A stretch of 64,000 bases of DNA from Escherichia coli. Lineage in GTDB: Bacteria > Pseudomonadota > Gammaproteobacteria > Enterobacterales > Enterobacteriaceae. Both the position numbers and the translations under genes were made by a program. The notes beneath the pieces were generated by a model, which saw only the letters and a list, made by a program, of their open reading frames with translations, had not been told where the DNA came from and did no database searches. Below, piece after piece: positions 28,927 through 60,619 of the stretch. The first letter of the stretch is position 1. Every line of letters begins with the position of its first letter. The DNA lies in the NCBI RefSeq assembly GCF_013315695.1, contig NZ_CP054353.1. The stretch is one strand, 5' to 3'.

Positions 28927-29050
28927 GGTTCTAACTCATTGTTTATCAACAAATAATATTTTTATTATCGTTTAATTCGAACTTGTTAATCCCGCCGGTG
29001 ATACGCTTCAGAACATCCTGTTTTCTGTCGCTACTTATATCGTTCACCCT

Positions 29051-30037: not shown

Positions 30038-30051
30038 CCCGGAAGTTAAAA

Positions 30052-30393: not shown

Positions 30394-30397
30394 CCCT

Positions 30398-33041: not shown

Positions 33042-33043
33042 CC

Positions 33044-33754
33044 ATGACCATTGAAACACTGCGCGGGCGCTATCGCCTGCACCGTTTTCCGCCGCGCCAG
33101 CGTGCGGTGACCGGAGAACCGCTCACCGCCAGCATTAGCGCCGCCGATTACCAGCGCCAGTTGATGGACGGTTTTCAGGAAGGGCTGCAAAAAGGGTTTG
33201 CTCAGGGAATGACCGAAGGCCAGGAGCAGGGCTTTAGCGAAGGTCATCAACAAGGTTTTGCCGAGGGGCGACGCCAGGGCTACACCGAAGGCAGCCTCGC
33301 CGGGCAGCAGGAAGGGCGCAAACAGTTTGTTGACGCGGCACAGCCGCTGGAAGCCATCAGCGGAAAAGTGAACGACTTTCTCGCCCATATCGAACGCAAA
33401 CAGCGGGAAGATTTGCTGCAACTGGTGGAAAAAGTCACCCGCCAGGTGATCCGCTGCGAACTGGCGCTGCAACCGACGCAGTTGCTGGCGCTGGTGGAAG
33501 AGGCACTGGCGGCCTTCCCGGCAATGCCGGAGACCCTCCAAGTGATGCTAAGTACGGAAGAATTTAACCGCTTGCGCGACGCGGTGCCGGAAAAGGTCAG
33601 CGAATGGGGGCTGACGCCTTCGCCGGATCTGCCGCCGGGTGAATGCCGGGTGATCACCGATAAATCCGAACTGGATATCGGCTGCGAGCACCGCCTGGAA
33701 CAATGCATGACCGCGCTACAAGAGACGCTAACGCCGGAGTCACAGGGTGAGTGA
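33044..33754 (+). CDS. lfiH: Flag-2 export ATPase regulator, FliH homologue
   Basis: 236 aa; glycine-rich repeats GFAQGMTEGQEQGFSEGHQQGFAEGRRQGYTEG. Confidence 0.85.
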   Translation: MTIETLRGRYRLHRFPPRQRAVTGEPLTASISAADYQRQLMDGFQEGLQKGFAQGMTEGQEQGFSEGHQQGFAEGRRQGYTEGSLAGQQEGRKQFVDAAQPLEAISGKVNDFLAHIERKQREDLLQLVEKVTRQVIRCELALQPTQLLALVEEALAAFPAMPETLQVMLSTEEFNRLRDAVPEKVSEWGLTPSPDLPPGECRVITDKSELDIGCEHRLEQCMTALQETLTPESQGE

Positions 33755-35084: not shown

Positions 35085-35086
35085 CC

Positions 35087-35521
35087 ATGCGACAAATCAT
35101 CGACACCCTGGCGCAGTTGCAGCGCCTGCGGGATAAATCGGTCAAAGACAAAACCGTCGAGCTGGCAAAGCAAAAACAGATTTGTGCGGGTTATGACAAC
35201 AATATCAAAGCATTAGGCTACCTGGTGGAGAAAACATCTGCGGGCGCGGCAGCGTCGGTGGAATCGCTGAAAAACGTCAGCGACTACAAAGGCACCTTGC
35301 GCAAGGTGATCGCCTGGCAGGAGCAGGAAAAAACGCTGGCTAACATCAAAGCCACGCGAATGCAGAAAAACCTGACGGCGGCGGCGTGCGAAGAGAAAGT
35401 GGTGGCCCTGACGCTGGACGACAAACGCCGCGAGCAGCAAGAAAGTGCCACGGCGAAAGCGCAAAAAGCGGTGGATGACATCGCCGTCCAGTGCTGGCTG
35501 CGGCATAAGTTAGCGGAGTAG
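35087..35521 (+). CDS. lfiJ: Flag-2 export chaperone/stalk protein, FliJ homologue
   Basis: 144 aa coiled-coil protein starting at ATG 35087 right after lfiI stop. Confidence 0.8.
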   Translation: MRQIIDTLAQLQRLRDKSVKDKTVELAKQKQICAGYDNNIKALGYLVEKTSAGAAASVESLKNVSDYKGTLRKVIAWQEQEKTLANIKATRMQKNLTAAACEEKVVALTLDDKRREQQESATAKAQKAVDDIAVQCWLRHKLAE

Positions 35522-35523
35522 CC

Positions 35524-35928
35524 ATGAAAACGGTCATCACCTTCGGCACCTTCGATGTGTTTCATGTCGGTCATCTGCGCCTTTTACAACGCGCCCGCAC
35601 GCTGGGCGAACGGCTGCTGGTCGGCGTATCGTCCGACGCCTTAAATATCGCCAAAAAGGGCAGAGCACCGGTTTACCCTCAGGATGACCGCATGTCGATC
35701 ATCGCCGGGCTGGCGTGCGTGGATGGCGTATTTCTGGAGGAATCGCTGGAGCAGAAAGCGGAGTATCTGCGGGGGTACCGTGCGGATATTTTAGTGATGG
35801 GCGATGACTGGGCAGGAAAGTTTGACAGCTTCGCGTATATTTGTGAGGTAGTGTATTTCCCCCGCACGCCGTCGGTGTCGACGACGGGGATTATTGAGGT
35901 GATTAGGGGTAAATCAGCCACCTACTGA
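35524..35928 (+). CDS. Glycerol-3-phosphate cytidylyltransferase (TagD-like, makes CDP-glycerol)
   Basis: 134 aa MKTVITFGTFDVFHVGHLRLLQRA... with HxGH motif and ...VVYFPRTPSVSTTGIIEVI; start codon 2 nt after lfiJ stop with SD GGAG. Confidence 0.85.
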   Translation: MKTVITFGTFDVFHVGHLRLLQRARTLGERLLVGVSSDALNIAKKGRAPVYPQDDRMSIIAGLACVDGVFLEESLEQKAEYLRGYRADILVMGDDWAGKFDSFAYICEVVYFPRTPSVSTTGIIEVIRGKSATY

Positions 35929-35976
35929 TTTAATTCCCGCAGTGAGAGAAGATGATGCCGTTTGGCTATGTTAAAT

Positions 35977-36079
35977 ATGTTTAAAAAATCGCGTTTTTTC
36001 GACATATCCCCAAAACATGTCGATGGCATAAACGTATTCCAACGACATGTTTAAAAATCGCATTTTATCGACATATCCC
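35977..36079. repeat. Two copies of a ~34-bp imperfect direct repeat plus a 10-bp inverted repeat
   Basis: ATGTTTAAAAAATCGCGTTTTTTCGACATATCCC (35977..36010) and ATGTTTAAAAATCGCATTTTATCGACATATCCC (36047..36079); inverted arms AAACATGTCG 36013..36022 / CGACATGTTT 36043..36052. Confidence 0.7.
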
Positions 36080-38521: not shown

Positions 38522-38570
38522 GGTGTTTGGGTGAGTTAATGGGTGAATGTGATGAATGTGCGTGCTGATG

Positions 38571-38684
38571 CCCTCACCCCGACCCTCTCCCACAGGGAGA
38601 GGGAGAAAACCAGCGCCGATTTTAACACCGTGCTCGATCGGTTCCCTCGCCCCTTTGGGGAGAGGGTTAGGGGGAGGGGAAAAG
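38571..38684. repeat. GC-rich composite palindromic intergenic repeat (CCCTCTCCC/GGGAGAGGG and GGTGAGGG-type motifs)
   Basis: Perfect hairpin CCCTCTCCC-aca-GGGAGAGGG at 38583..38603 and CCCTCGCCCCTTTGGGGAGAGGGTTAGGGGGAGGGG at 38644..38679; related copy at 18402..18436. Confidence 0.6.
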
Positions 38685-38699
38685 CGCGCACAGAGCGAC

Positions 38700-39629
38700 T
38701 CACGTCAGCAGCGAAAATGCTGACAGCAGCGGCTCTGCCGCACATAACGACTGGAGCTGCTGGCGAATCGCCGCAGCATTTTCACTCTCTCGCCAGCGTT
38801 CAAACACCGCAAAAAGGGCGAAAATATCCTCCTTCCGCAGCGGTGAACCATCCAGCGTCCATAAACTGATTAACGTGCGGATGAGATAAAAATCACACAC
38901 CAGCGGGCAATAATCTGCTCCGTCTGCCTGCCCAATCACGTCGTGATAAACGCGGTAAATCAGCCAGTTGCGCATCATCCACGGCGCGGCGGCAAAATGC
39001 TGTTGCCAGGTGGTTTGCCACTGCACCTTAAGCTGCTGTTGCAACAAAGCTTCGCTGTTGGCGTCATGCAACGTCAGCAAAGTCACCTGCAACGGTAGCG
39101 AGGCTTTGCGCGGGCTTTCCGGCAAAATCGACCAGTCAAACGCAAAACTCCCGAGCAGCGTCACCAGTTGGCGCGCCAGTTGTGGCACGGGTGGGAGTTG
39201 GGCGAACTGTGCCTGTAGCGTGCCTTTTTGTGCATGATCCCCCAGCGCCTGTGGCAGCGTCGTCAAGCGGGCAAGAATATCTCCGTCTCTGCCCGGCATT
39301 TTACTGGCGCGGGAGAGCAAAATCCCGACGGCATACAGGGAAAGCTCCGGGGTTAAATCGGGGAGCGTAAGGGTGCTCAAAATGGCCTGGTTTACTATCG
39401 CATCGCGCGCGGATAGCTCGGCGGCATTGTCTTCCACAGGGCGGTAGGTGAGCTGTAAATCAAAGGCCCTGGCATCGTTGAGCACCGCTTTGCAACTTTC
39501 AATATCGGTCAATGCCAGGCTCTGGCGAATCTCATTCTTCCAGACCTTGCGGACGTACAAAGGCGAATCGGGATATTGCGTCATAAAATTGCGCACGTAT
39601 TCCGGTTCGTAACATTCAATAAAACTCAT
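38700..39629 (-). CDS. Hypothetical protein, Flag-2 internal, function unknown
   Basis: 309 aa from ATG 39629 (MSFIECYEPEYVRNF...); no motif I can recognise; track ORF starts at upstream TTG 39668. Confidence 0.6.
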   Translation of the reverse strand: MSFIECYEPEYVRNFMTQYPDSPLYVRKVWKNEIRQSLALTDIESCKAVLNDARAFDLQLTYRPVEDNAAELSARDAIVNQAILSTLTLPDLTPELSLYAVGILLSRASKMPGRDGDILARLTTLPQALGDHAQKGTLQAQFAQLPPVPQLARQLVTLLGSFAFDWSILPESPRKASLPLQVTLLTLHDANSEALLQQQLKVQWQTTWQQHFAAAPWMMRNWLIYRVYHDVIGQADGADYCPLVCDFYLIRTLISLWTLDGSPLRKEDIFALFAVFERWRESENAAAIRQQLQSLCAAEPLLSAFSLLT

Positions 39630-39756
39630 AGGTGGCTTCCAGTCTTTATTACTTTGCGGAATGTGCAATAAGCGTGCCGGGAATTTTTGTAATCAAAAAC
39701 AAGGGATTGAGAATCAGGCGGAAAATCCGTTTCCGCGATGGGGGAAGGAATTGTCG

Positions 39757-40185
39757 TTATTCCTGGTACAGAAAATCTGTTTCGCCGCCTAAAAAAAACT
39801 GAATAAATTCATACTGGCGAATCAACAGCTCGCCGTTTTTGTCGTTGTAGGCTTTGCAGCGTTCCGCTTTTTGCTCAAGGCGTTGCCACAACTGTTGTGC
39901 TGCTGCTTTTTGCACAGCCGGAAGCCAGGCAAAAACCTGCGCCAGACCGTCACGATTTACACTGACATTAAGCATTTTCAGCAGGCTGTGCCGCTGATGG
40001 CTATGCCCATGCAACTGTTCATAGTGCTGCGTTATCTCGTCGTTTACCGCCAGCAGATCTTCGCTGGCGCGGCGAATCATGCAGATCCGCTGACGCTGGA
40101 GAAGTTCGCGCAGGGAATCGTACAGTGCGTCGTCGTCACGAATGCCCTGCAACAACGCCTTCACCTGTTGTAACCGGATACTCAC
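39757..40185 (-). CDS. lfgN: Flag-2 export chaperone, FlgN homologue
   Basis: 142 aa; GTG start with SD AAGAGG overlapping the lfgM stop; position downstream of flgM homologue. Confidence 0.78.
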   Translation of the reverse strand: MSIRLQQVKALLQGIRDDDALYDSLRELLQRQRICMIRRASEDLLAVNDEITQHYEQLHGHSHQRHSLLKMLNVSVNRDGLAQVFAWLPAVQKAAAQQLWQRLEQKAERCKAYNDKNGELLIRQYEFIQFFLGGETDFLYQE

Positions 40186-40197
40186 TTCATCGGCCTC

Positions 40198-40476
40198 TTA
40201 GTTCTGGAAAAAACTCAGCATGTCGCTGGCTAACTGTTCGGTGTCCACTTGCAGGCTGCCGGACGCCAGCATCGCCTGCATTTGCGCCACTTTATCGCTG
40301 TCGATATCGCTCTCTTGCTGGTCGTTCAGCGTTTGCTGGGCAGACTGCAATCCCGCCTGGGTAATGTCGTCTGCGCTCTGCGTAGTGGTGGTGGTCGCCG
40401 TGCTTTTGCGTGGCTGGCTGGAGCCAGCCGTTGTGGCTGTCGGGCGATTGCCTGGCATAGTCGGGGTGATTTTCAT
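40198..40476 (-). CDS. lfgM: Flag-2 anti-sigma-28 factor, FlgM homologue
   Basis: 92 aa; Thr/Ser-rich N-terminus and conserved C-terminal region. Confidence 0.8.
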   Translation of the reverse strand: MKITPTMPGNRPTATTAGSSQPRKSTATTTTTQSADDITQAGLQSAQQTLNDQQESDIDSDKVAQMQAMLASGSLQVDTEQLASDMLSFFQN

Positions 40477-40512
40477 CGCAACCTCGTCTCGGTATTTAGG
40501 TGGGTTACTCCA

Positions 40513-40542
40513 GTAAAGCGGTTAACAGGCGGCAAAACTTTA
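40513..40542 (-). promoter_or_regulatory. Candidate sigma-28 (LafS)-type promoter upstream of lfgM-lfgN
   Basis: Minus strand TAAAGTTT-N14-CGCTTTAC; -35 element is a perfect match to the FliA TAAAGTTT consensus; 37 nt upstream of lfgM ATG. Confidence 0.45.
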
Positions 40543-40556
40543 ATCGCCTGCGCAAA

Positions 40557-41294
40557 TTACTCCGCGCTTACCGTCGTCACCACGCCGCTTTCTGCCACCC
40601 TCGCGCTAATGACCCGCTGGCTGCTGGCGTTACGCACTTTCACCATCTCGCCCTTACGACCATTTTTCAGCGCCACGCCGGGCATCGAGGCGCTGAGCCC
40701 CGCGCTCTGGTAAACAATCATCACCGGTTGATCGCGCTCGACCAGCACCGGAGATATCAGTTCTTCTTTGGTGATTGGCCTGCCCGGTTGCAGCGCGTGT
40801 TTACTGCTGAAACCAATCGCGTCATTGGGTTCCATCAACACCTCCCGGTGCTGGGCACTGACGTTGTAAGGCTTCAACTCCACATCATTCGCCGTGAGCG
40901 GCGTATCGCGGGCAACCAGTGACTTTGCCATCACCACCGGCACCAGAACATCCGGGCGTACCGCGACGTTCATCTGCCAGCTTTGCGGGCAACTGACGGT
41001 GAAGTTCATCCGGTTGAGGGCGATTTCCGCAGGCGAAGTCAGCGTGACGCCGGGGGCCGTAGCGCAGGGCGTGGCGGTCGCAATCTGCGAGGGAATGTAG
41101 ACCTTAAAGGTGTAGCGATAGTCATGCCACTGCCGTTGTTGCGCCAGCGATTCAATCTGCTGGCTCGCGGCATTCAGCACCTGGGCGTTGACTTGTTCCC
41201 GCGCGCTGTGTTGCACGGGGTGGACGGCGGCGTAGCCCGGTAAGGTCAGCGCCAGGAGGAAATAAAACTTCCGCCTGCAAAATTGAAAACTCAT
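40557..41294 (-). CDS. lfgA: Flag-2 P-ring assembly chaperone, FlgA homologue
   Basis: ATG 41294 (MSFQFCRRKFYFLLALTLPGYAA...) with signal peptide; SD AAGGG. Confidence 0.83.
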   Translation of the reverse strand: MSFQFCRRKFYFLLALTLPGYAAVHPVQHSAREQVNAQVLNAASQQIESLAQQRQWHDYRYTFKVYIPSQIATATPCATAPGVTLTSPAEIALNRMNFTVSCPQSWQMNVAVRPDVLVPVVMAKSLVARDTPLTANDVELKPYNVSAQHREVLMEPNDAIGFSSKHALQPGRPITKEELISPVLVERDQPVMIVYQSAGLSASMPGVALKNGRKGEMVKVRNASSQRVISARVAESGVVTTVSAE

Positions 41295-41323
41295 AAACCC
41301 TTTCTCATCAGTCACTTAAAAAA

Positions 41324-41339
41324 TGGCACGGCAATTGCT
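41324..41339 (+). promoter_or_regulatory. Sigma-54 promoter upstream of lfgB operon
   Basis: TGGCACG-gcaa-TTGCT, exact match to -24/-12 consensus TGGCACG-N4-TTGCW; 37 nt upstream of lfgB ATG. Confidence 0.75.
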
Positions 41340-41375
41340 TAGCGTATGCGGATTGAAGCAGGAGTGACGCAGAGA

Positions 41376-41711
41376 ATGGGGATCAGTTTTCAACAAGCAT
41401 TGGGAGTGCATCCGCAGGCAGTGAAGTTACGTCTTGAGAGGACCGAGCTACTGACTGCGAATCTGGCGAACGTCGATACGCCAAATTTCAAGGCTAAAGA
41501 TATTGATTTTGCCAGGGAGATGCAACGGGCAAATAACGCGGCGGTGGATGTCCAGTACCGCGTGCCGATGCAGCCGTCAGAAGATGGCAACACCGTGGAA
41601 CTGAACAGCGAACAGGCACGGTTTTCACAAAATAGTATGGATTATCAAAGCTGTCTGACCTTTCTGAATCTGCAAATCAGCGGCATCAGAGAGGCCATTG
41701 AAGGGAAATAA
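41376..41711 (+). CDS. lfgB: Flag-2 proximal rod protein, FlgB homologue
   Basis: ATG 41376 preceded by SD AGGAG; conserved rod N-terminal motif. Confidence 0.88.
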   Translation: MGISFQQALGVHPQAVKLRLERTELLTANLANVDTPNFKAKDIDFAREMQRANNAAVDVQYRVPMQPSEDGNTVELNSEQARFSQNSMDYQSCLTFLNLQISGIREAIEGK

Positions 41712-41713
41712 GC

Positions 41714-42145
41714 ATGTCATTTACTGATATCTATCAGATTTCCGGCTCGGCGATGACGGCGCAAACGCTACGTCTGAATACCGTCGCCAGTAACCTGGCG
41801 AATGCTAATGCACCTGCCAGCAGCGAGGCGCAGGCGTATAAAGCGCGCAGCCCGGTGTTTGCGACGGTGTATCACCACAGCTTGCTGGTGGGTACACATC
41901 GTCATGCCATTGATGGTGCCAGCGTGCAGGTGCAGGACGTGCTGCAAACCGGCGGGGCGGTGAAACGCTATGAACCGCATTCGCCGCTGGCGGATGCTAA
42001 CGGGGATGTCTGGTATCCCGACGTCAACGTGGTGGAACAGATGGCGGACATGATGTCGGCCTCGCGCGATTTTGAAACCAATGTCGATGTGCTCAACAAC
42101 GTGAAAAGTATGCAGCAAAGCCTGCTGAAACTGGGAGAAGCCTGA
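41714..42145 (+). CDS. lfgC: Flag-2 proximal rod protein, FlgC homologue
   Basis: 143 aa. Confidence 0.9.
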   Translation: MSFTDIYQISGSAMTAQTLRLNTVASNLANANAPASSEAQAYKARSPVFATVYHHSLLVGTHRHAIDGASVQVQDVLQTGGAVKRYEPHSPLADANGDVWYPDVNVVEQMADMMSASRDFETNVDVLNNVKSMQQSLLKLGEA

Positions 42146-42858
42146 TGAATACCCTGGCGCTGAATGCGCAATCGCCGCAGCCGACCGCCACGGCGGAAAG
42201 CAACAACGTGGCGGCCAGCGACACGACAAGCAGCAGCGATAGCTCGCCCGTTGATACTTTCCTGACGCTGTTTGTCGCTGAGATCCAAAACCAGGACCCG
42301 ACCGACCCGACCGACGCCACCGAATATATCGACCAGCTTTCGTCAATGGCGCAGGTGGCGATGATGGAAGAGATGAGCGTGCAGGCGAATACCAACGCGG
42401 TGTTGATGAGCAACATTCAGGTGATGGCGCTCGGCAACCTGGTGGGCGACGACATTATGGTGCAGACCACCGCCTTGCAGGTGAGTGACCAGACCATTAA
42501 CGGTCGCGCCACGCTGGATGACGCCTGTACCACCGCCGATCTCCACTTTACCGATGCTGCGGGCGATGACTACACCGTCTCGCTGATCCCGGAAGGGAGT
42601 TCGTCGGTTGGGCCAGGCCAGGTCGATTTCTCGATTAATCCGGCGGATTACGGCATCCCGCCGGGCGATTACGACGTCTCGGTGGTGACCAACACCGGGG
42701 AAGAAGAGGTGCCGATTGAAGTCTCCGGCGAAGTGGAAGATGTACGCATCCCGCTCGACGGCAGCTCTCCGGTGCTCAACGTTGCAGGTGTGGGCGAAGT
42801 GCCGTTCACCATGATTAGCCAGTTTGGCGTACCCGATGCCGACAGTGATGTGGCGTGA
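42145..42858 (+). CDS. lfgD: Flag-2 hook capping/scaffold protein, FlgD homologue
   Basis: 237 aa. Confidence 0.85.
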   Translation: MNTLALNAQSPQPTATAESNNVAASDTTSSSDSSPVDTFLTLFVAEIQNQDPTDPTDATEYIDQLSSMAQVAMMEEMSVQANTNAVLMSNIQVMALGNLVGDDIMVQTTALQVSDQTINGRATLDDACTTADLHFTDAAGDDYTVSLIPEGSSSVGPGQVDFSINPADYGIPPGDYDVSVVTNTGEEEVPIEVSGEVEDVRIPLDGSSPVLNVAGVGEVPFTMISQFGVPDADSDVA

Positions 42859-42874
42859 TGTCTGGTGCCAAATT

Positions 42875-42971
42875 GCCTGATGCGCTTCGCTTATCAGGCC
42901 TACATGAAACTGCAATGTATTGAATCTGCATGGTTTTGTAGGCCGGACAAGGCGTTCACGCCGCATCCGGC
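42875..42971. repeat. REP/BIME element between lfgD and lfgE
   Basis: GCCTGATGCGCTTCGCTTATCAGGCCTAC ... GTAGGCCGGACAAGGCGTTCACGCCGCATCCGGC. Confidence 0.8.
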
Positions 42972-43017
42972 AAAACAACGGGCACGCAGTCAAAATTTGA
43001 ATTAACAGGACGAAACA

Positions 43018-44220
43018 ATGAGTTATGAAATTGCCGCAACGGGGTTGAATGCCGTTAACGAACAACTGGACGGGATCAGTAACAACATCGCCAACGCCGG
43101 AACGGTAGGCTATAAGTCGATGACCACCCAGTTTTCAGCCATGTATGCCGGAAGTCAGGCGATGGGCGTCAGCATGGCAGGCACCGCGCAAAGTATTTCG
43201 CGCGGCGGTTCGCTGGTATCCACCGGTAACGCGCTGGATCTGGCGATTAACGACGACGGCTTTTTTGTTACCTGCGACAGCGCGGGCAACATTTCTTATA
43301 CCCGCGCCGGATCGTTTGAAACCGACAAAAACGGCTATATCGTCAACGCCTCAGGCGCTTATTTGCAGGGCTATCCGGTCGATGACACGGGCACTCTGCA
43401 AACCGGTACAGTCACCGATATCCAGATCAAAACTGGCAATATTCCGGCGCAGGCCAGCAGCAGCCTGACCTTTACCGCCAACTTCGATGCCAGCGACGAC
43501 GCTATCGACCGCACTACCGTACCGTTCGACGCGACCAACAGCAGCTCGTATACCGACAGCTACACCACCACGGTGTACGACTCATTAGGTAACGAACACT
43601 CGGTATGCCAGTACTTCACCAAAACCAGCGACAACACCTGGGAAGTGCAGTACACCTTCGACGGTCAGCAGCAGACCGGCGTTCCGGCGACGACGTTAAC
43701 CTTCGACCCGAACACCGGAAAACTGACCTCGCCAACTACGCCGCAGACCATTGAGTTTCAGACCGACGCCGCCGCGCCCATCGATTTAACCGTCGATTAC
43801 TCCACCTGTACGCAATACGGTTCTGAATTTTCTGTCACCACCAACGCCGCCGACGGCTACGCCTCCGCGACTCAGAACGGTGTGCAGGTCGATGACGATG
43901 GCAAAGTTTACGCCACCTACAGCAACGGCGAGCGCATGTTGCAGGGCCAGGTGGTGCTGGCGACTTTCCCGAATGAAAACGGCCTGGAGGCAGTGAGCGG
44001 CACCGCGTGGGTACAAACCGGGGAATCCGGCACCCCGCTGATTGGCGTTCCCGGCTCCGGCACCTGCGGTACGCTGTCGTCCGGCGTGCTCGAAAGCTCT
44101 AACGTCGATATCACCAGCGAGTTAGTCAACCTGATGACCGCCCAGCGTAACTATCAGGCCAACACCAAAGTTATCGCTACCAGCACGCAGCTCGATGACG
44201 CGCTGTTCCAGGCAATGTAA
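43018..44220 (+). CDS. lfgE: Flag-2 hook protein, FlgE homologue
   Basis: 400 aa; conserved flagellar rod/hook N- and C-terminal helices. Confidence 0.9.
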   Translation: MSYEIAATGLNAVNEQLDGISNNIANAGTVGYKSMTTQFSAMYAGSQAMGVSMAGTAQSISRGGSLVSTGNALDLAINDDGFFVTCDSAGNISYTRAGSFETDKNGYIVNASGAYLQGYPVDDTGTLQTGTVTDIQIKTGNIPAQASSSLTFTANFDASDDAIDRTTVPFDATNSSSYTDSYTTTVYDSLGNEHSVCQYFTKTSDNTWEVQYTFDGQQQTGVPATTLTFDPNTGKLTSPTTPQTIEFQTDAAAPIDLTVDYSTCTQYGSEFSVTTNAADGYASATQNGVQVDDDGKVYATYSNGERMLQGQVVLATFPNENGLEAVSGTAWVQTGESGTPLIGVPGSGTCGTLSSGVLESSNVDITSELVNLMTAQRNYQANTKVIATSTQLDDALFQAM

Positions 44221-44957
44221 TGGATCGCCTGATTTATACCGCCCTGAGCGGGGCTTCTCAGACGTTGTACGAGCAGCAAATTAGCGCCAACAACCTGGCG
44301 AACGTCAACACCAACGGTTTTCGCGCCGATATGGCGATGGCGACCAACGACAAGGTGAAAGGCGGCGGCTTCGACACGCGCTATATGGCGCAGGAAGGGG
44401 CCAGCGGCGTGAACGACAGCACAGGTGTGGCGGAGAAAACAGAACGCCCGCTGGACGTGGCGATTCAGGGCGCGGGTTACATTGCGGTGCAGGATAAAAA
44501 CGGCAACGAAGTCTATACCCGCAACGGCAACATTCAGCAGGACGACCAGGGGCAACTGACCATCGACGGCAATCTGGTGCTGGGGGATAACGGGCCGATT
44601 ATTCTGCCGCCGAACGCCATCGCCTCGTTTGGCAGCGACGGCACGCTGTCGGTGACGCCCGATGACGGCGACGTGACCGCGACGATGGATATCGACCGCC
44701 TGAAGCTGGTGGATATTCCGGTCGCTAACCTGGCGAAAAATCCTGAAGGGATGCTGATAACTGCCGACGGCGTTCCGGCCCAGCGCGATGAAAACATCAA
44801 AGTCAGCGGCGGTTTTCTCGAAGGCAGCAACGTCTCGGCGGTGAGCGAAATGATGTCGTCCATCGCCATGAATCGCCAGTTTGAAGCGCAGATCAAGATG
44901 ATGAAAACCGCCGAAGATATCAGCGACGCGGGCAACCGCTTATTGCGCGGCTCGTAA
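44220..44957 (+). CDS. lfgF: Flag-2 rod protein, FlgF homologue
   Basis: 245 aa. Confidence 0.9.
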   Translation: MDRLIYTALSGASQTLYEQQISANNLANVNTNGFRADMAMATNDKVKGGGFDTRYMAQEGASGVNDSTGVAEKTERPLDVAIQGAGYIAVQDKNGNEVYTRNGNIQQDDQGQLTIDGNLVLGDNGPIILPPNAIASFGSDGTLSVTPDDGDVTATMDIDRLKLVDIPVANLAKNPEGMLITADGVPAQRDENIKVSGGFLEGSNVSAVSEMMSSIAMNRQFEAQIKMMKTAEDISDAGNRLLRGS

Positions 44958-44966
44958 CCGCACATC

Positions 44967-45001
44967 GTAGGCCGGATAAGGCGTTCACGCCGCATCCGGC
45001 A
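44967..45001. repeat. REP element between lfgF and lfgG
   Basis: GTAGGCCGGATAAGGCGTTCACGCCGCATCCGGCA. Confidence 0.8.
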
Positions 45002-45035
45002 ACTGCGGCCCAAAAATAACACGGAATTTACCACC

Positions 45036-54470: not shown

Positions 54471-55787
54471 ATGATCAACCCAAGAACCATTGCGCAAGAA
54501 ATCGCCTATGCGGATGTTGCCACTCAGGCGGCAAACTTGCAGGAGAAGCAGAGCGAGCTGGATGCGGAAAGCAGCGGCCTGGACTCGCTCAGCTCAGCGT
54601 TGAGCGATTTTCAGAGCGCCGTTGACGCGCTGAACAGCGATACTGACGGCCCGGTGACGTTTGCCGCCACCAGCAATAATGACTCGGCGACCGTTTCCGC
54701 CAATTCCCAGGCGCAGGCGGGAAGCTACTCATTTTTCGTTGAGCAACTGGCACAGGGGCAGCAAACCACGTTCAGTATGGGCGACGACGCCTTTTCCGCT
54801 ACCGGCACCTTCGAACTGACGATGGGCGGCAGCACCATGGATATCGATCTGTCGGCGGCGGATCAAAACGGTGACGGCGACGGTTTTATCGACGCCAGTG
54901 AACTGGTGAATGCGATTAACGACTCTGATGACAATCCGGGCGTGTCGGCGGCACTGGTAAAAACCGACGGCACCACCACGATTATGCTCACCTCCGATAG
55001 CACCGGGGCGCAGAGCGCATTTTCGGTGAGCGTAACGGGGCATGACGCCAGCAACGACAGCGCCAGCGCGCCTGTTGCTACGGATGTTTCCTCCGCCCAG
55101 GACGCGATTATTCATCTCGGCAGCGCCACGGGGCCAGAGATCACTAATAGCAGCAATACCTTTGATGATGTGATCCCCGGCGTCACCATGACTTTCACCG
55201 AAGTCAGCGATTCTGACAGCGATCTCACTACCTTTAACATCAGCGAAGATTCCAGCGCCAGCCAGGAGAAAGTACAGACCTTTGTCGATGCATATAACAC
55301 CTTGATTGATACGGTTGATTCGCTGACCACCCACGGTGATGACAGTACCAGCGCCGGGGTATTTGCAGGCGACGCCGGACTCAGCTCACTGGCAAACCAG
55401 CTCGATGACATCGCCCATGCCAGCTACAACGGCGTGTCGATTGTCGACTATGGCATTACGCTCGATTCTCACGGCCATTTACAGATTGATTCAGACCAGT
55501 TCAACGACGCGATGAAGAGCGATCCCGACGGCCTGACCTCTATTTTCGTCGGCGATAACAGCATGGTGGCGCAGATGGACAGCCTTATTGACACCTATAC
55601 CGACTCCAGCAACGGCATCATCACCCTGCGCCAGCAGAACATTGACGATCAGATGAGCAAAATTCAGGACGAAGGCGATCAGCTTACCGATACCTATAAC
55701 GCCAACTACGACCGTTATCTGGAGGAGTACACCAACACGCTGGTTGAGGTGTACACCATGAAAGCCAGCATGGCGGCATTCGCGTAA
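54471..55787 (+). CDS. lafB: Flag-2 filament cap protein, FliD homologue
   Basis: 438 aa. Confidence 0.85.
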   Translation: MINPRTIAQEIAYADVATQAANLQEKQSELDAESSGLDSLSSALSDFQSAVDALNSDTDGPVTFAATSNNDSATVSANSQAQAGSYSFFVEQLAQGQQTTFSMGDDAFSATGTFELTMGGSTMDIDLSAADQNGDGDGFIDASELVNAINDSDDNPGVSAALVKTDGTTTIMLTSDSTGAQSAFSVSVTGHDASNDSASAPVATDVSSAQDAIIHLGSATGPEITNSSNTFDDVIPGVTMTFTEVSDSDSDLTTFNISEDSSASQEKVQTFVDAYNTLIDTVDSLTTHGDDSTSAGVFAGDAGLSSLANQLDDIAHASYNGVSIVDYGITLDSHGHLQIDSDQFNDAMKSDPDGLTSIFVGDNSMVAQMDSLIDTYTDSSNGIITLRQQNIDDQMSKIQDEGDQLTDTYNANYDRYLEEYTNTLVEVYTMKASMAAFA

Positions 55788-55809
55788 CTCAGAAGGAATA
55801 TCCCTAAAG

Positions 55810-56202
55810 ATGTACCAAGTACAGGATGGCTATTCGCAATACAAAGAGGTCGATCTCGCGGCGCGTACCGCTGCGGCATCGCCTCTTGAACTGGTGCTGG
55901 TGCTGTTTTCTGGCCTGATGGACGAGCTGGAACGCGCCAGAAGCCACATTGAAGGGCGGCGTTTCGAGAAGAAAGCCCAGAGCATCAATAAATGCATCGA
56001 CATTCTCAATGCGCTCACCAGTTCGCTGGAGTTTGAAACCGGTGGCGAGCTGGTGGTGAATCTTTCTCGCCTCTATGACCACTGCGTGTATCGCTTGTAT
56101 GAAGCCAGTGGCGAACTGTCGGCAGAGAAAATCGATGAAGTGATGCTGATCTTAAGCAACCTGCGTGAAGGCTGGGAAGGGCTTTCGGGCAAGCTGGGTT
56201 AA
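55810..56202 (+). CDS. lafC: Flag-2 flagellin chaperone, FliS homologue
   Basis: 130 aa. Confidence 0.88.
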   Translation: MYQVQDGYSQYKEVDLAARTAAASPLELVLVLFSGLMDELERARSHIEGRRFEKKAQSINKCIDILNALTSSLEFETGGELVVNLSRLYDHCVYRLYEASGELSAEKIDEVMLILSNLREGWEGLSGKLG

Positions 56203-56206
56203 GACG

Positions 56207-56518
56207 ATGGAAAAACAACGCAGGCAACTTTTCGCGCTGGTTGAAGCGATGAACGAAGCCCTCGACAAGCAACGCTGGCGACGCCTTCCGGCACTGCATC
56301 AGCAGTTGATGCGCCAGTTTCACGATTACGTGGCGGCGGAAACCGACGCGGCGCAGTTGTGTGCGGTGAAGGCGCAGCTGTACGGCGCGTTTAATGCCCT
56401 GATTAAACGGCGCGAGCAGCGTGCAGAAGTGTTGAAGGCGCGTATGGAACAGCATCAGCGGCATCAGGAAGGCGTACTGGCCTACTCAATTGTTAATTTA
56501 CTTTCGGAGAAGTCATGA
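56207..56518 (+). CDS. lafD: Flag-2 small helical protein, probable FliT-like chaperone
   Basis: 103 aa from ATG 56207 right after lafC stop; assignment by position after fliS homologue, sequence not diagnostic. Confidence 0.55.
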   Translation: MEKQRRQLFALVEAMNEALDKQRWRRLPALHQQLMRQFHDYVAAETDAAQLCAVKAQLYGAFNALIKRREQRAEVLKARMEQHQRHQEGVLAYSIVNLLSEKS

Positions 56519-57603
56519 ATCCGGCATTGCTTGCCACGCTCGGAACACTTGCGGAAACGGCGTCGCTGAAAGCGGATATTTTACCGCCGGTGAGTAGTGA
56601 AAACGCGCCCGCGTTTACCCTGCCGAAAATGGCGGTCGCGGCGGTGGCGGAGCGCGTTCATAGCGCTAAAACCAGTCAGCATCAGGCGACGCGCCCGCAG
56701 GAGAACGATCCGGTGGCGATGCAGGCGCTAATGGCGCTGTTACTTCCGCAACCTGCCGCGCCGCATCAGGACACGCCGCAGCCGCGAAACGTCGCAACAT
56801 CGCCGGTTATCCAGCAATTGACGAAAGCGGTGGTGCAAAACGCGCCGCAACGCCCGACGCAGCAGCAGGAACTCACGTCGTTGCCGCCGCAGTTGCAGGA
56901 ACTCACGTCGTTGCCGCCGCAGTTGCAGGAACTGATCGGTCAGTTGCCGCAGGCGAAACCCGAACAGCAGGCCAGACTGGCGACTTACGCCAGTGACGAT
57001 TTACATGCCATTGCGCCGACGCAGCCGCGCGTCTCAACACCGCCAGCTCGCCCGAAACCTGAACTACCCCGTGTGAACGCGCGCCCGCAGGTCGAGCGTA
57101 AAACGGAAAAAGTGCCGGACAGCGAACCGGTTATTGCGCGTGCGGTGTTGCAGGTTAAGACGCCGGATCTGGTCAGCGAACATCATGAGATTGTCGCCAA
57201 ACCAGCCACGCTTTCGATGGACGAACTGGGCGAAAAACTGACGACGCTGTTGAAAGATCAGATCCACTTTCAGCTCAACAAACAACAGCAGATCTCCACC
57301 ATCCGTCTCGATCCACCGTCGCTTGGCAAGCTTGAGATCGCCGTACAACTCGATAACGGCAAACTGATGGTGCACATCGGCGCGAACCAAAGTGAAGTTT
57401 GCCGCGCGTTACAACAGTTTAGCGACGATCTCTGCCAGCATTTGACGGCGCAAAATTTTATGGAGGTGAACGTACAGGTTTCCTCCGAAGGGCAGTCGCA
57501 GCAACAACAGTCGGGCCATCAGCAGGAAGAGGTGAGTGCCGCCTTACAGCTTGATGATGCGCCTCAATTTCAACAGAACGAATCCGTTTTGATCAAAGTG
57601 TAA
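56515..57603 (+). CDS. lafE: Flag-2 hook-length control protein, FliK homologue
   Basis: 362 aa; Pro/Gln-rich central region; conserved C-terminal FliK domain; contains in-frame 30-bp tandem repeat. Confidence 0.8.
   Translation: MNPALLATLGTLAETASLKADILPPVSSENAPAFTLPKMAVAAVAERVHSAKTSQHQATRPQENDPVAMQALMALLLPQPAAPHQDTPQPRNVATSPVIQQLTKAVVQNAPQRPTQQQELTSLPPQLQELTSLPPQLQELIGQLPQAKPEQQARLATYASDDLHAIAPTQPRVSTPPARPKPELPRVNARPQVERKTEKVPDSEPVIARAVLQVKTPDLVSEHHEIVAKPATLSMDELGEKLTTLLKDQIHFQLNKQQQISTIRLDPPSLGKLEIAVQLDNGKLMVHIGANQSEVCRALQQFSDDLCQHLTAQNFMEVNVQVSSEGQSQQQQSGHQQEEVSAALQLDDAPQFQQNESVLIKV
56866..56925 (+). repeat. Perfect 30-bp tandem direct repeat (2 full copies plus 8 bp) inside lafE
   Basis: CAGGAACTCACGTCGTTGCCGCCGCAGTTG x2, encoding QELTSLPPQL twice. 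Confidence 0.92.
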
Positions 57604-57610
57604 AGGCAAT

Positions 57611-58078
57611 ATGAAGAAAATCGTGGTGGCGGGCGTGGTCAGCGCCGTTCTGGCGTTGGTGGTGGGGGCCGGAGCTGGATGGGGTGTCTGGCATCATTAT
57701 GCCGGAAAAGGAAAACCGACTGCCGCCGCGCAGACGGAAACGGTGGAAACCCTGGATGAAAGCAAAAGCGTATTTGTGACGTTGCCGGAAACCATTGTCA
57801 CGCTGCATGACAACAACGGCGCGGACCATTATTTGTCGGCGGAATTAGTGATGGTGGTCGCCAGTGACAAAGAAGCGGAAAAAATAAAACATCAGGAGCC
57901 GCTGTATCAAAGTATTGCAGTTGAATGCCTGACGGAAATGAAATTTGAAGATTTGCGTGGCATGAAAATATCCGCCATCCGCAAACTGATTTCGGATGCG
58001 TTAAAGAAAGATCTTCAACGTCGCAAAATGAGCGCACCGTATAAGGATTTGCTGGTGAAAAAAGTGGTCTTCCAGTAA
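57611..58078 (+). CDS. lafF: Flag-2 FliL-like basal-body-associated protein
   Basis: 155 aa; N-terminal TM helix then FliL-like periplasmic domain. Confidence 0.78.
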   Translation: MKKIVVAGVVSAVLALVVGAGAGWGVWHHYAGKGKPTAAAQTETVETLDESKSVFVTLPETIVTLHDNNGADHYLSAELVMVVASDKEAEKIKHQEPLYQSIAVECLTEMKFEDLRGMKISAIRKLISDALKKDLQRRKMSAPYKDLLVKKVVFQ

Positions 58079-58097
58079 TCACCAGGCGGATATAAAC

Positions 58098-58817
58098 ATG
58101 CTACAGGACGTATTATTCGAGTCAGAAGAATTTGCTGCCGCGCCGGTATTAACCCCGCAGCAGGAGAGCCACTACTTGCAGGCCTATTTACCTCTGGTGC
58201 GTAAAGTGGTGCGGCAACTTGCCCCGCAGTGTAATTGCATTATTGATCGTCAGGATATGGAACAAACGGCGTTAATGGGGCTGTTGAACGCCATTCGTCG
58301 CTATGGGCTGCCGGACGAAGGTTTTGCGGGCTATGCCGTGCACCGGATTCGCGGCGCGATCCTTGATGAGCTGCGCGCTCTCGACTGGCGACCGCGCCAG
58401 CTGCGACAGAAATATCATCAGATGAAAGACCTGATTCGCGAAACGCGTAAAAAACTGGGGCACGAACCGGAGTGGCAGGAGCTGGCTGAGGAAGGGATCT
58501 CGCATGAAGATTATCTCGAATATCAGCAACTGGAAGGGGCGGAAACGCTCGCCAGCCTGGACGAACTGCTGAACGGCGAAGGGCCAGGCATTCCGCTTGC
58601 TGGCAGAGACCTGGAAGATCAGTTTGTCACCCAGCAAATGCTGCAACACGCGCTTTCACAATTAAGCGAAAAAGAGCAACTGATCCTCTCCATGTATTAC
58701 CAGCATGAGATGAATCTCAAAGAGATTGCGCTGGTATTAGGGCTAACCGAGGCCCGAATTTGTCAACTGAATAAACAGATCGCGCAGAAAATTCGTGATT
58801 TTGTCTATCCGAATTAA
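58098..58817 (+). CDS. lafS: Flag-2 sigma-28-type alternative sigma factor, FliA homologue
   Basis: 239 aa; sigma-70 family regions 2 and 4. Confidence 0.9.
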   Translation: MLQDVLFESEEFAAAPVLTPQQESHYLQAYLPLVRKVVRQLAPQCNCIIDRQDMEQTALMGLLNAIRRYGLPDEGFAGYAVHRIRGAILDELRALDWRPRQLRQKYHQMKDLIRETRKKLGHEPEWQELAEEGISHEDYLEYQQLEGAETLASLDELLNGEGPGIPLAGRDLEDQFVTQQMLQHALSQLSEKEQLILSMYYQHEMNLKEIALVLGLTEARICQLNKQIAQKIRDFVYPN

Positions 58818-58829
58818 AGTGAAGAAATC

Positions 58830-59693
58830 ATGCAAAAAATATTAGGTTTACTGGTGGTGCTCGGCTGCGTATTTGGCGGTTATTTTGAAGCGGGCGGCCA
58901 ATTAGTGGCTATCTGGCAGCCTGCAGAGATAGTTATTATTTTAGGTGCTGGTTTCGGGGCGATGATTATTGGGAACCCGAAACATGTGCTGAAAGAGATT
59001 GCCCATCAAATTAAAGGCGTGATCAGTAAAAAACAGCTCGGGCCGGAGTTTCAGCGCCAGCTATTAATGTGCCTGTATGAGTTGCTTGAAATGGTACAAA
59101 ACGGCGGTCTGCGGATGTTGGATCAGCATATTGAGCAGCCGGAAGAGAGTACCGTTTTCCAGAAATACCCGCTGGTGTTAACCCAGAAGCGGCTGGTGAC
59201 TTTTATTGCCGATAACTTTCGCCTGATGGCGATGGGTAAAATCGACGCCCATGAACTGGAAGGCATTCTCGATCAGGAGCTGGATACCGCCGAAGAGTCG
59301 CTGCTAACGCCGTCACGCTCGCTGCAACGGACCGCCGAAGCGATGCCGGGATTTGGTATTTGTGCAGCAGTGTTGGGCATCATCATTACCATGCAGTCGA
59401 TTGACGGCTCTATCGCCCTGATCGGCCTGAAAGTGGCGGCAGCGCTGGTGGGGACGTTTTTAGGCGTGTTTATCTGCTACTGCCTGATGGATCCGCTTGC
59501 CAACGCCATGGAACAACAGGCGCGGGCGGAACATTCGCTGCTGGAGTGTGTGCGTACCGTGCTGGTGGCCCAGGCGGGCGGCAAACCGACGCTGTTGGCG
59601 GTGGACGCCGGGCGTAAGTTGCTGCATCTGGCGTCCAAACCGACCTTCGCCAACCTCGACGCGTGGGTGAATGCGATGCTGGAGCAAGAATAA
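58830..59693 (+). CDS. lafT: Flag-2 stator protein, MotA homologue
   Basis: 287 aa, four TM segments. Confidence 0.9.
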   Translation: MQKILGLLVVLGCVFGGYFEAGGQLVAIWQPAEIVIILGAGFGAMIIGNPKHVLKEIAHQIKGVISKKQLGPEFQRQLLMCLYELLEMVQNGGLRMLDQHIEQPEESTVFQKYPLVLTQKRLVTFIADNFRLMAMGKIDAHELEGILDQELDTAEESLLTPSRSLQRTAEAMPGFGICAAVLGIIITMQSIDGSIALIGLKVAAALVGTFLGVFICYCLMDPLANAMEQQARAEHSLLECVRTVLVAQAGGKPTLLAVDAGRKLLHLASKPTFANLDAWVNAMLEQE

Positions 59694-59695
59694 GC

Positions 59696-60619
59696 ATGAG
59701 AAAGACGGGCAACCGCCGCGAGCGTGGGGCAAAAACCACCATCGTCCGGCGGCAGATCAAAAAGAATCATGCCGGGCATCATGGCGGGGCGTGGAAGGTG
59801 GCGTTCGCCGACTTTACCCTGGCGATGATGGCGCTATTTATGACGCTGTGGATTGTCAACAGCGTCAGTAAATCCGAGCGTGAAAGCATTATCGCCGCGC
59901 TGCACGGGCAGTCGATTTTTAATGGTGGAGGGCTGTCGCCGTTAAATAAAATCAGCCCGTCTCATCCGCCAAAACCTGCCACCGTGGCGGTGCCGGAAGA
60001 GACGGAGAAAAAAGCGCGTGACGTCAATGAGAAAACGGCGCTGCTGAAGAAGAAATCCGCTACTGAGCTTGGCGAGCTGGCGACCAGTATCAACACTATT
60101 GCCCGTGATGCACATATGGAAGCGAATCTGGAGATGGAGATTGTTCCCCAGGGACTGCGCGTGCTGATTAAAGATGACCAGAACCGCAATATGTTTGAAC
60201 GCGGCAGCGCACAGATTATGCCGTTCTTTAAAACTTTGCTGGTGGAGTTAGCGCCGGTTTTTGATTCGCTCGACAATAAGATCATCATCACCGGGCATAC
60301 CGATGCGATGGCCTACAAAAACAATATCTACAACAACTGGAACCTTTCGGGTGACCGCGCGCTTTCGGCTCGTCGGGTGCTGGAAGAGGCAGGAATGCCG
60401 GAAGATAAAGTGATGCAGGTGAGCGCAATGGCGGACCAGATGCTGCTGGATGCCAAAAATCCGCAAAGCGCGGGCAACCGGCGCATTGAGATTATGGTGC
60501 TGACTAAAAGCGCGTCCGATACGCTGTATCAATACTTTGGTCAGCATGGGGATAAAGTGGTGCAGCCGCTGGTGCAAAAGCTGGATAAGCAGCAGGTACT
60601 TTCACAGCGAACGCGCTAG
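59696..60619 (+). CDS. lafU: Flag-2 stator protein, MotB homologue (full length)
   Basis: ATG 59696 (MRKTGNRRERG...); single TM helix; C-terminal OmpA-like peptidoglycan-binding domain. Confidence 0.88.
   Translation: MRKTGNRRERGAKTTIVRRQIKKNHAGHHGGAWKVAFADFTLAMMALFMTLWIVNSVSKSERESIIAALHGQSIFNGGGLSPLNKISPSHPPKPATVAVPEETEKKARDVNEKTALLKKKSATELGELATSINTIARDAHMEANLEMEIVPQGLRVLIKDDQNRNMFERGSAQIMPFFKTLLVELAPVFDSLDNKIIITGHTDAMAYKNNIYNNWNLSGDRALSARRVLEEAGMPEDKVMQVSAMADQMLLDAKNPQSAGNRRIEIMVLTKSASDTLYQYFGQHGDKVVQPLVQKLDKQQVLSQRTR

What the first reader, a model, noticed from the sequence alone, without database searches (positions are those of the whole stretch)
56866..56925. Perfect 30-bp in-frame tandem repeat in the hook-length ruler gene lafE
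CAGGAACTCACGTCGTTGCCGCCGCAGTTG occurs twice in tandem plus 8 bp of a third copy, encoding QELTSLPPQL-QELTSLPPQL in the Pro/Gln-rich linker of the FliK homologue. FliK linker length is known to set hook length, so copy-number change by slippage would be a simple way to vary lateral hook length between strains.
Basis: partly seen in the sequence, partly recalled or inferred. Interest (0 to 1): 0.6.

Follow-up and report, generated by a model that had tools for sequence, protein, structure and literature searches.

The report
Ten-residue duplication in lateral-flagellum hook ruler
One E. coli lineage carries an exact 30-bp in-frame duplication in the spacer of LafE, the protein that measures hook length for the second (Flag-2) flagellar system; it is a real slippage polymorphism, but it is rare, stable at two copies and predicted to lengthen the hook by only about 2-4 nm, so it is ordinary.

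Summary
A perfect period-30 tract lies at 56865-56933 (two full units plus 9 bp) inside the 362-aa ORF 56515-57603. That ORF is the FliK-family hook-length protein LafE of an intact E. coli Flag-2 cluster.

The duplication sits in the Pro/Gln-rich, weakly constrained, low-confidence central region, more than 100 residues upstream of the conserved T3S4 switch domain, so it lies in the ruler part.

Copy number does vary in nature, but rarely:
- Of 1304 complete E. coli genomes carrying lafE, three have two copies, and those three are nearly identical around the locus.
- Draft assemblies show the two-copy allele on about 530 contigs, always with exactly two copies.
- Rare alleles with -30, +33 and -33 bp occur at the same spot. 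The two checked at DNA level (-30, +33) are bounded by 8-9-bp direct repeats; -33 is inferred from the protein.

The mechanism is replication slippage at a relic degenerate repeat, not a fast-switching locus.

Salmonella calibrations (0.2 nm per residue; 5-residue deletions give about -4 nm with no motility defect; wild type 53 +/- 6.5 nm) predict a shift within normal scatter. Natural repeat-number variation in a type III ruler is already known for Yersinia YscP. Flag-2 function in E. coli has not been demonstrated. Interest is low.

The parts
56515..57603 (+). lafE: FliK-family hook-length control (ruler) gene of the Flag-2 lateral flagellar cluster, 362 aa
   Evidence: ORF. Pfam PF02120 Flg_hook at residues 250-331, E 1.3e-15. 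PGAP names it 'flagellar hook-length control protein FliK', WP_001067483.1. Foldseek top hits are 2RRL FliK_C and 5CUK PscP.
56865..56933 (+). Perfect period-30 tract: two full 30-bp units plus 9 bp
   Evidence: 39-nt exact self-match at offset 30, unique in the window; sequence.
56866..56895 (+). Repeat unit 1, encoding QELTSLPPQL (residues 118-127)
56896..56925 (+). Repeat unit 2, the extra copy absent from nearly all other E. coli alleles (residues 128-137)
   Evidence: Alignments with one-copy alleles.
56926..56952 (+). Older degenerate unit encoding QELIGQLPQ, present in all alleles. It supplies the short homologies used for slippage.
   Evidence: The TRF array extends to 56950. The unit is conserved in one-copy alleles and in other Escherichia species.
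56865..56873 (+). 9-bp direct repeat GCAGGAACT, also at 56895-56903 and 56925-56933. In the one-copy allele two such copies lie 30 bp apart and bound both the +30 and the -30 events.
   Evidence: Sequence. The zero-copy allele L013 shows an exact deletion between these repeats.
56880..56887 (+). 8-bp direct repeat GTTGCCGC, also at 56910-56917 and 56943-56950. Pairs lie 33 bp apart and bound the +33 event (DNA seen) and, by inference from the protein, the -33 event.
   Evidence: L014 DNA for the +33 allele. P0125 (364 aa) and P0006 (342 aa) protein sequences.
57262..57507 (+). Region encoding the T3S4 (Flg_hook) switch domain, residues 250-331
   Evidence: Pfam. Nearly invariant across E. coli alleles. 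pN/pS 0.04 over residues 236-362. Model pLDDT 55-72.
22437..60616 (.). Flag-2 gene cluster, flhA to lafU. All 41 genes checked are full length without stops.
   Evidence: tblastn of MS 21-1 Flag-2 proteins against the window; annotation.

Best explanation
The feature is a lineage-specific 30-bp in-frame tandem duplication in lafE.

How it arose (inferred from sequence anatomy and parallel alleles): replication slippage between two 9-bp direct repeats, GCAGGAACT, which lie 30 bp apart in the ancestral one-copy allele. Those repeats are left over from an older, now degenerate duplication (QELTPLPPQL / QELIGQLPQ).

What it changes (shown): it adds ten residues, QELTSLPPQL, to the Pro/Gln-rich, weakly constrained central spacer of LafE. 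LafE is the secreted FliK-type ruler of the Flag-2 lateral flagellar system.

Expected effect (inferred from Salmonella FliK): in the ruler model, hook growth stops when the C-terminal T3S4 domain meets FlhB while the N-terminus is still at the hook tip. Ten extra spacer residues should therefore lengthen the lateral hook by about 2-4 nm. That is within the normal scatter of hook length, so the allele is most likely neutral or nearly neutral and spread with the clone that carries it. It is not a rapidly switching locus.
For: Duplication and mechanism:
- The tract is perfect.
- One-copy alleles carry GCAGGAACT on both sides of the unit.
- The reciprocal -30-bp allele is an exact deletion between the same repeats (L013).
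- An independent +33-bp allele (L014) uses the neighbouring GTTGCCGC pair; the -33-bp allele (P0006) fits the same pair at protein level.

Single origin and stability:
- Only 3 of 1304 complete genomes carrying lafE have two copies.
- Two of those (MSB1_4I, AF3) differ from the window by 2-7 SNPs over 16-17 kb, against 13 SNPs for the closest one-copy strains. LafE of the latter is otherwise identical.
- Both copies carry the same TCG (Ser) codon, which also occurs in one-copy ST131-type and AF14 alleles, so the substitution predates the duplication.
- Two-copy proteins occur on about 530 contigs and all full-length members have exactly two copies. One metagenome contig also has two.

Location in a tolerant spacer:
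- All natural in-frame indels fall within residues 58-190, most of them within 84-180.
- pN/pS is 0.52 in the central region against 0.04 in the C-terminal region.
- Pro is 18% and Gln 16% over residues 78-200.
- Model pLDDT is below 50 for residues 77-134.

Small predicted effect:
- 0.2 nm per inserted residue, and motility is clearly reduced only at FliK <=363 or >=520 aa (PMC6126814).
- 5-residue linker deletions give about -4 nm with no loss of motility; wild type is 53.3 +/- 6.5 nm (PMC6972891).
Against: - No phenotype was measured. The calibration comes from Salmonella FliK, not from LafE.
- In Salmonella, 5-residue linker deletions shortened hooks by about twice the geometric prediction, so ten residues could matter more than 2 nm.
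- The duplicated unit contains a motif, SLPP(Q/K)LQ, that is partly conserved in Citrobacter, Kluyvera and Salmonella orthologues. Doubling it might do more than add length.
- The cluster is intact and the T3S4 domain is under strong purifying selection. The system is therefore probably used, and a small change in the hook could be visible to selection.
- The spread of the allele on hundreds of contigs fits hitch-hiking but does not exclude selection.
Confidence: 0.72

Rival explanations
1. Adaptive tuning. Slippage at this repeat is a mechanism by which E. coli strains adjust lateral hook length, and the two-copy allele was selected because a longer hook helps in some niche.
For: - The repeat lies in the ruler part, and ruler length scales with hook length in Salmonella.
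- Length variants of -30, +30, -33 and +33 bp all exist at this spot.
- The homologous injectisome ruler YscP shows natural repeat-number variation that has been proposed to affect virulence (PMC3469391).
- The Flag-2 cluster is intact.
Against: - One copy is overwhelmingly dominant.
- Two copies occur in one closely related lineage and never three.
- The -30 and +/-33 alleles are on 1-7 contigs each and are absent from the 5426 complete genomes searched.
- Much larger in-frame deletions of the same region also persist (282 aa on 74 contigs; 233 aa), which points to tolerance rather than tuning.
- The predicted shift of about 2-4 nm is inside the wild-type standard deviation.
Confidence: 0.1
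2. Motif doubling. The unit carries a functional short motif (SLPPQLQ), for example a contact site for the hook cap, the hook or a chaperone. Two copies would change how often or how well LafE measures, rather than acting through length.
For: - The motif is the best conserved stretch of the otherwise divergent central region across genera.
- In Salmonella the region aa 121-160 of FliK_N matters for function beyond its length (bioRxiv 10.1101/2020.03.25.007062).
Against: - Natural E. coli alleles delete the motif entirely and still keep an open reading frame. Some of these are found on many contigs (P0011, P0013, P0026, P0030, P0034).
- The region is predicted without stable structure.
- No binding data exist.
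Confidence: 0.06
3. No consequence at all, because Flag-2 is cryptic in E. coli. On this view lafE is not expressed under any natural condition and the duplication is one sign of slow decay.
For: - Flag-2 function has not been demonstrated in E. coli, and earlier work regarded it as non-functional (PMC6993521; PMC4481668).
- One two-copy strain, MSB1_4I, has a flgI pseudogene.
- Many deletion alleles of lafE exist, as does a LafE-LafU fusion.
Against: - All 41 Flag-2 genes checked are intact in the window.
- The lafE C-terminal region has pN/pS 0.04 and the N-terminus 0.18, which a dead gene would not show.
- 1299 of 1304 complete genomes that carry lafE cover at least 80% of it.
Confidence: 0.1
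4. Sequencing or assembly artefact that collapsed or expanded a repeat.
For: Short tandem repeats can be mis-assembled.
Against: The same two-copy sequence appears in three independently assembled complete genomes from the USA, Australia and the UK, on hundreds of draft contigs and on one metagenome contig. A 60-bp tract is shorter than a single short read.
Confidence: 0.01

Closest known systems
Salmonella/E. coli FliK (flag-1 hook-length ruler; Pfam PF02120, structure 2RRL)
   Same: - C-terminal T3S4 domain.
- A long N-terminal and central part with low sequence constraint that serves as the ruler.
- Insertions and deletions there change hook length linearly, about 0.2 nm per residue (PMC6126814).
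- Encoded in a flagellar gene cluster.
   Different: - LafE is shorter (352-362 aa against 405 aa) and gave no sequence hit to any solved structure at E <= 0.01.
- It belongs to the separate sigma-54/LafK-controlled Flag-2 lateral system and lies downstream of lafA-fliD-fliS.
- The length changes studied in FliK were engineered; here the change is natural.
LafE of Vibrio parahaemolyticus (VPA1553), Aeromonas and Plesiomonas lateral flagella
   Same: Same name, the same position in the lafA-B-C-D-E-F-S-T-U gene order, and the same annotated role of hook-length control (PMC4481668).
   Different: No comparison with these sequences was made here. The 30-bp duplication is specific to one E. coli lineage, and orthologues in other Escherichia species, Citrobacter, Kluyvera and Salmonella have a single unit.
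YscP of Yersinia (injectisome needle-length ruler) with natural repeat-number polymorphism
   Same: - A secreted type III ruler with a T3S4 domain.
- Tandem repeats of 14, 25 and 46 aa in the ruler part differ in number between strains (452-538 aa).
- Protein length correlates linearly with needle length (PMC3469391 citing Wagner 2009).
   Different: - YscP varies by up to 86 residues, with measurable differences in needle length; here the change is 10 residues in a flagellar ruler with no measurement.
- LafE scores below the curated cut-off of the YscP model (39.9 against 76.5 bits).
Simple-sequence contingency loci (phase-variable genes)
   Same: Both change by slipped-strand mispairing at tandem repeats within a coding sequence.
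   Different: Here the unit is 30 bp, there are only two copies, the change stays in frame, there is no on/off switching, and the state is stable across hundreds of isolates.

Membership tests
FliK/LafE flagellar hook-length control proteins | C-terminal T3S4 (Flg_hook, PF02120) substrate-specificity switch domain | tested here: met
   Pfam hit at residues 250-331, E 1.3e-15. The AF2 model's best PDB matches are FliK_C 2RRL (E 9.7e-6) and the PscP SS domain 5CUK (TM 0.70 normalised to the target, rmsd 2.8 A).
FliK/LafE flagellar hook-length control proteins | Long N-terminal/central region of low complexity and low sequence constraint that acts as ruler and spacer | tested here: met
   Pro 18% and Gln 16% over residues 78-200. 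pLDDT below 50 for 77-134 and 162-233. pN/pS 0.52. Many indels between genera.
FliK/LafE flagellar hook-length control proteins | Encoded within a flagellar gene cluster; for LafE, in the order lafA-fliD-fliS-lafD-lafE-fliL-fliA-motA-lafU | tested here: met
   NCBIfam hits of the neighbours; PGAP annotation; laf gene order in PMC4481668.
FliK/LafE flagellar hook-length control proteins | Secreted during hook assembly, and its length determines hook length | not testable with these tools
   Needs secretion assays and electron microscopy of hook-basal bodies.
YscP-type injectisome needle-length determinant (TIGR02514) | Score above the curated cut-off of the equivalog-domain model | tested here: not met
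   39.9 bits against a cut-off of 76.5. It is related through the T3S4 domain only.
Type III ruler proteins with natural tandem-repeat length polymorphism (YscP-like behaviour) | Tandem repeat located in the ruler part, with copy number differing between strains | tested here: met
   The repeat is at residues 118-137, upstream of T3S4. Alleles with 0, 1 and 2 units exist.
Type III ruler proteins with natural tandem-repeat length polymorphism (YscP-like behaviour) | Length of the built structure follows the repeat number | not testable with these tools
   No hook measurements exist for any E. coli Flag-2 system.
Contingency (hypermutable repeat) locus | Frequent copy-number change among closely related isolates | tested here: not met
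   All full-length members of the two-copy protein cluster have exactly two copies, across about 530 contigs. The three complete genomes and one metagenome contig also have two.
Contingency (hypermutable repeat) locus | Repeat change switches expression or reading frame | tested here: not met
   The unit is 30 bp, and all variants seen (+/-30, +/-33) keep the frame.

The most novel reading that the evidence does not exclude
The central spacer of LafE is a naturally evolvable ruler. On this reading, E. coli lineages carry alleles from 233 to 364 aa, produced by slippage between short direct repeats. These set different lateral-hook lengths suited to different surfaces or viscosities, and the +/-30 and +/-33-bp hotspot acts as the fine adjustment.
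Probability: 0.07. Interest if true: 0.5.

Novelty: new member of a known kind. Interest (0 to 1): 0.2.

Why it matters
If copy number measurably changed the lateral hook, lafE would offer a natural allelic series (0, 1 and 2 units, plus larger deletions). That series could test the ruler model in a second flagellar system, and show whether hook length is under selection outside the laboratory. As the evidence stands, the feature is a tidy example of slippage at a relic repeat in a tolerant spacer, and possibly a marker for one E. coli lineage. It is not a new mechanism.

Tried and rejected
- A 50-nt junction query returned 424 genomes. Of these, 421 were spurious gapped matches to the one-copy Ser-codon allele of ST131-type strains, as shown by alignment. 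Only the three 100% matches are true two-copy alleles.
- A concatenated query of synthetic junctions for the -30, +33 and -33 alleles, on two sequence backgrounds each, found nothing in the complete genomes. These alleles are known only from draft assemblies.
- A metagenome scan for the unit-unit junction gave a single contig, with two copies. No allele with three or more copies was seen anywhere.
- A sequence search of LafE against solved structures found nothing at E <= 0.01. The fold comparison was needed instead.
- The AF2 model is poor overall (mean pLDDT 46.9). It is used only to say that the T3S4 domain folds and that the repeat region has no confident structure.
- I first assumed the window was strain MS 21-1 because lafE is 100% identical. 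This is wrong. The window differs by 15 SNPs over 24 kb and by a 15-bp indel, lacks the ClbS/ISEc53 insertion of MS 21-1, and has an IS1 that MS 21-1 lacks.
- The original Flag-2 paper (Ren et al. 2005, PMC545627) is not held.
- The in-frame bias of the indels cannot be read as selection, because frameshifted alleles would not appear as full-length proteins in the protein collection.

Full report
**1. The observation**

The 30-bp unit CAGGAACTCACGTCGTTGCCGCCGCAGTTG occupies 56866-56895 and again 56896-56925. It is followed by CAGGAACT. The exact self-match at offset 30 is 39 nt long, so the perfect tract is 56865-56933. It is the only perfect tandem duplication with period 7-300 in the window, against about 7e-17 expected by chance. 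Tandem Repeats Finder extends the array to 56854-56950 (3.1 copies, 89% matches) because a third, older and degenerate unit follows. The tract is in frame in the ORF 56515-57603 (362 aa) and encodes QELTSLPPQL-QELTSLPPQL-QELIGQLPQ.

**2. The gene and its setting**

The ORF carries a Pfam Flg_hook (FliK, T3S4) domain at residues 250-331, E 1.3e-15. It has a weak, sub-threshold match to the YscP needle-length model. Its neighbours are FliD, FliS, a small unnamed ORF, then LafE, FliL, a FliA-type sigma factor, MotA and LafU. This is the lafA-to-lafU order of lateral flagellar clusters, in which LafE is the hook-length control protein (PMC4481668).

An AlphaFold model built from 18 homologues is poor overall (mean pLDDT 46.9). 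It does fold residues 235-325 into an alpha/beta domain with pLDDT 55-72. The best solved matches to that domain are the C-terminal domain of FliK (2RRL) and the PscP switch domain (5CUK, TM 0.70, 2.8 A).

The window is E. coli. lafE is 100% identical to that of strains MS 21-1 and MSB1_4I. The window is not MS 21-1 itself, however. All 41 Flag-2 genes checked, from flhA (22437) to lafU (60616), are full length with no stop codons. [quoted passage not shown]

**3. Where the repeat sits in the protein**

Residues 78-200 are 18% Pro and 16% Gln. The model gives pLDDT below 50 and no secondary structure for residues 109-134.

Among five E. coli alleles, summed over pairwise comparisons, pN/pS is:
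- 0.18 for residues 1-83
- 0.52 for residues 84-235
- 0.04 for residues 236-362

Between genera the central part is full of substitutions and indels, whereas the C-terminal domain is nearly invariant. The repeat, at residues 118-137, therefore lies in the spacer between the N-terminus and the T3S4 domain. In FliK this spacer is the ruler (PMC6972891; bioRxiv 10.1101/2020.03.25.007062). One caveat is that the unit overlaps SLPP(Q/K)LQ, the best conserved short motif of that region.

**4. Variation between strains**

lafE is present in 1304 of 5426 complete E. coli genomes.

Two-copy alleles in complete genomes:
- A junction-specific query found three true two-copy genomes: MS 21-1 (USA), MSB1_4I (Australia) and AF3 (UK).
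- The other 421 hits to that query were spurious matches to the one-copy allele of ST131-type strains, which shares the Ser codon.
- Every other allele sampled had one unit, with gene lengths of 1062, 1059 or 1053 bp. The small differences come from a CAG run and a 9-bp repeat elsewhere in the gene.

Relatedness of the two-copy strains:
- Over 16-17 kb around lafE, MSB1_4I and AF3 differ from the window by 2 and 7 SNPs.
- The closest one-copy strains, AF14 and AF10, differ by 13 SNPs. Their LafE is identical apart from the ten residues.

Protein collection:
- The exact window protein occurs on 238 contigs, and a one-substitution variant on 266.
- Smaller variants occur on 19, 9 and 1 contigs.
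- All full-length members have exactly two units.
- A metagenome scan for the unit-unit junction returned one contig, also with two units.
- No three-unit allele was seen.

**5. Other events at the same spot, and the mechanism**

| Change | Allele | Evidence | Bounding repeat |
|---|---|---|---|
| -30 bp | P0004, P0005 (343 aa; 3 and 4 contigs, two backgrounds) | P0004 DNA (L013): exact 30-bp deletion leaving one GCAGGAACT | GCAGGAACT, 30 bp apart |
| +33 bp | P0125 (364 aa; 4 contigs) | DNA (L014): tandem duplication in a shifted register | GTTGCCGC, 33 bp apart |
| -33 bp | P0006 (342 aa) | Protein only; the reciprocal loss | GTTGCCGC, inferred |

None of these three alleles is present in the complete genomes.

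In the one-copy allele the unit is flanked by GCAGGAACT on both sides. Both copies of the window's duplication carry the same TCG codon, which is also found in one-copy alleles. The substitution therefore came before the duplication.

Together these point to slipped-strand mispairing between short direct repeats left by an older duplication. That is inference from anatomy and from the parallel alleles; no rate was measured.

Larger in-frame deletions, at least two of them between short direct repeats, remove 5 to 120 residues, all within residues 58-190 and most within 84-180. Examples are a 325-aa allele on 16 contigs, a 282-aa allele on 74 contigs, and a 233-aa allele. Because frameshifted alleles would not appear as full-length proteins in that collection, the in-frame bias cannot be taken as evidence of selection.

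**6. Expected consequence**

In Salmonella:
- Hook length rises by 0.2 nm per residue inserted in FliK.
- Motility in soft agar falls clearly only for FliK of 363 aa or less, or 520 aa or more, compared with 405 aa in the wild type (PMC6126814).
- Five-residue deletions in the linker shorten hooks from 53.3 +/- 6.5 nm to about 49 nm without affecting motility or secretion.
- A fully extended chain would give 0.37 nm per residue (PMC6972891).

Ten residues therefore predict about +2 nm if helical and +3.7 nm if extended; scaling linearly from the 5-residue deletions would give up to about 8 nm. The geometric figures are a third to a half of one wild-type standard deviation (6.5 nm); the upper bound slightly exceeds it. 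This is an extrapolation to a different protein. No measurement of an E. coli Flag-2 hook exists, and Flag-2 function in E. coli has not been demonstrated (PMC6993521).

**7. Comparison with what is known**

LafE passes the tests for the FliK/LafE family that could be run here: the T3S4 domain, the low-constraint spacer and the gene context. It is not a YscP equivalog.

Its 14-, 25- and 46-residue repeats vary in number between Yersinia enterocolitica strains (452-538 aa), and YscP length correlates linearly with needle length (PMC3469391).

The lafE site fails the tests for a contingency locus. It is stable at two copies across hundreds of isolates, and every change seen stays in frame.

**8. 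Verdict**

- It overstates the dynamics and the likely effect.
- This is a new, minor example of a known kind of polymorphism.
- Interest is low unless measurement shows an unexpectedly large effect on the hook.

Noticed in passing
window 48000-48310: A 117-bp tandem repeat, 2.6 copies at 92% identity, lies in the gap between the rod-binding (FlgJ-like) gene and flgK. Two units match Rfam naRNA4 (RF02564, REP-derived) at 48073-48150 and 48191-48267.
   Followed up: partly
window 5282-6049: An IS1 element (InsA and InsB ORFs) is inserted in dkgB, flanked by the 9-bp target duplication CCATATTAC. It is absent from strain MS 21-1, so the window comes from a different strain of the same lineage.
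   Followed up: partly
window ~37751: A 15-bp in-frame indel lies inside the large Flag-2 glycosyltransferase gene. GATCGCCTGATACTG is present in MS 21-1 and absent from the window.
   Followed up: no
window ~60662-60669 (between lafU and dinB): At this point MS 21-1 carries a 1.9-kb insertion with a ClbS/DfsB-family gene and an ISEc53 (ISL3-like) transposase. The window, MSB1_4I and AF3 lack it.
   Followed up: no
window 56631-56650 and ~57499-57510 (both within lafE): lafE has two further small in-frame length polymorphisms. One is a 9-bp repeat, GGCGGTCGC; isolate SC477 lacks 9 bp here, removing three residues. The other is a CAG run encoding 4, 5 or 6 Gln in different alleles.
   Followed up: partly
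lafE residues 58-190 in other E. coli (proteins P0007, P0011-P0030, P0031, P0034, P0045, P0049): Many natural in-frame deletions of 5-120 residues occur in the LafE spacer, at least two of them between short direct repeats. They include a 282-aa allele on 74 contigs and a 233-aa allele. There is also a LafE-LafU fusion protein. The T3S4 domain is untouched in all deletion alleles.
   Followed up: partly
L009 313-1164 (strain MSB1_4I, a two-copy strain): The Flag-2 P-ring gene flgI is annotated as a pseudogene (truncated). At least one member of the two-copy lineage has therefore probably lost Flag-2 function.
   Followed up: no
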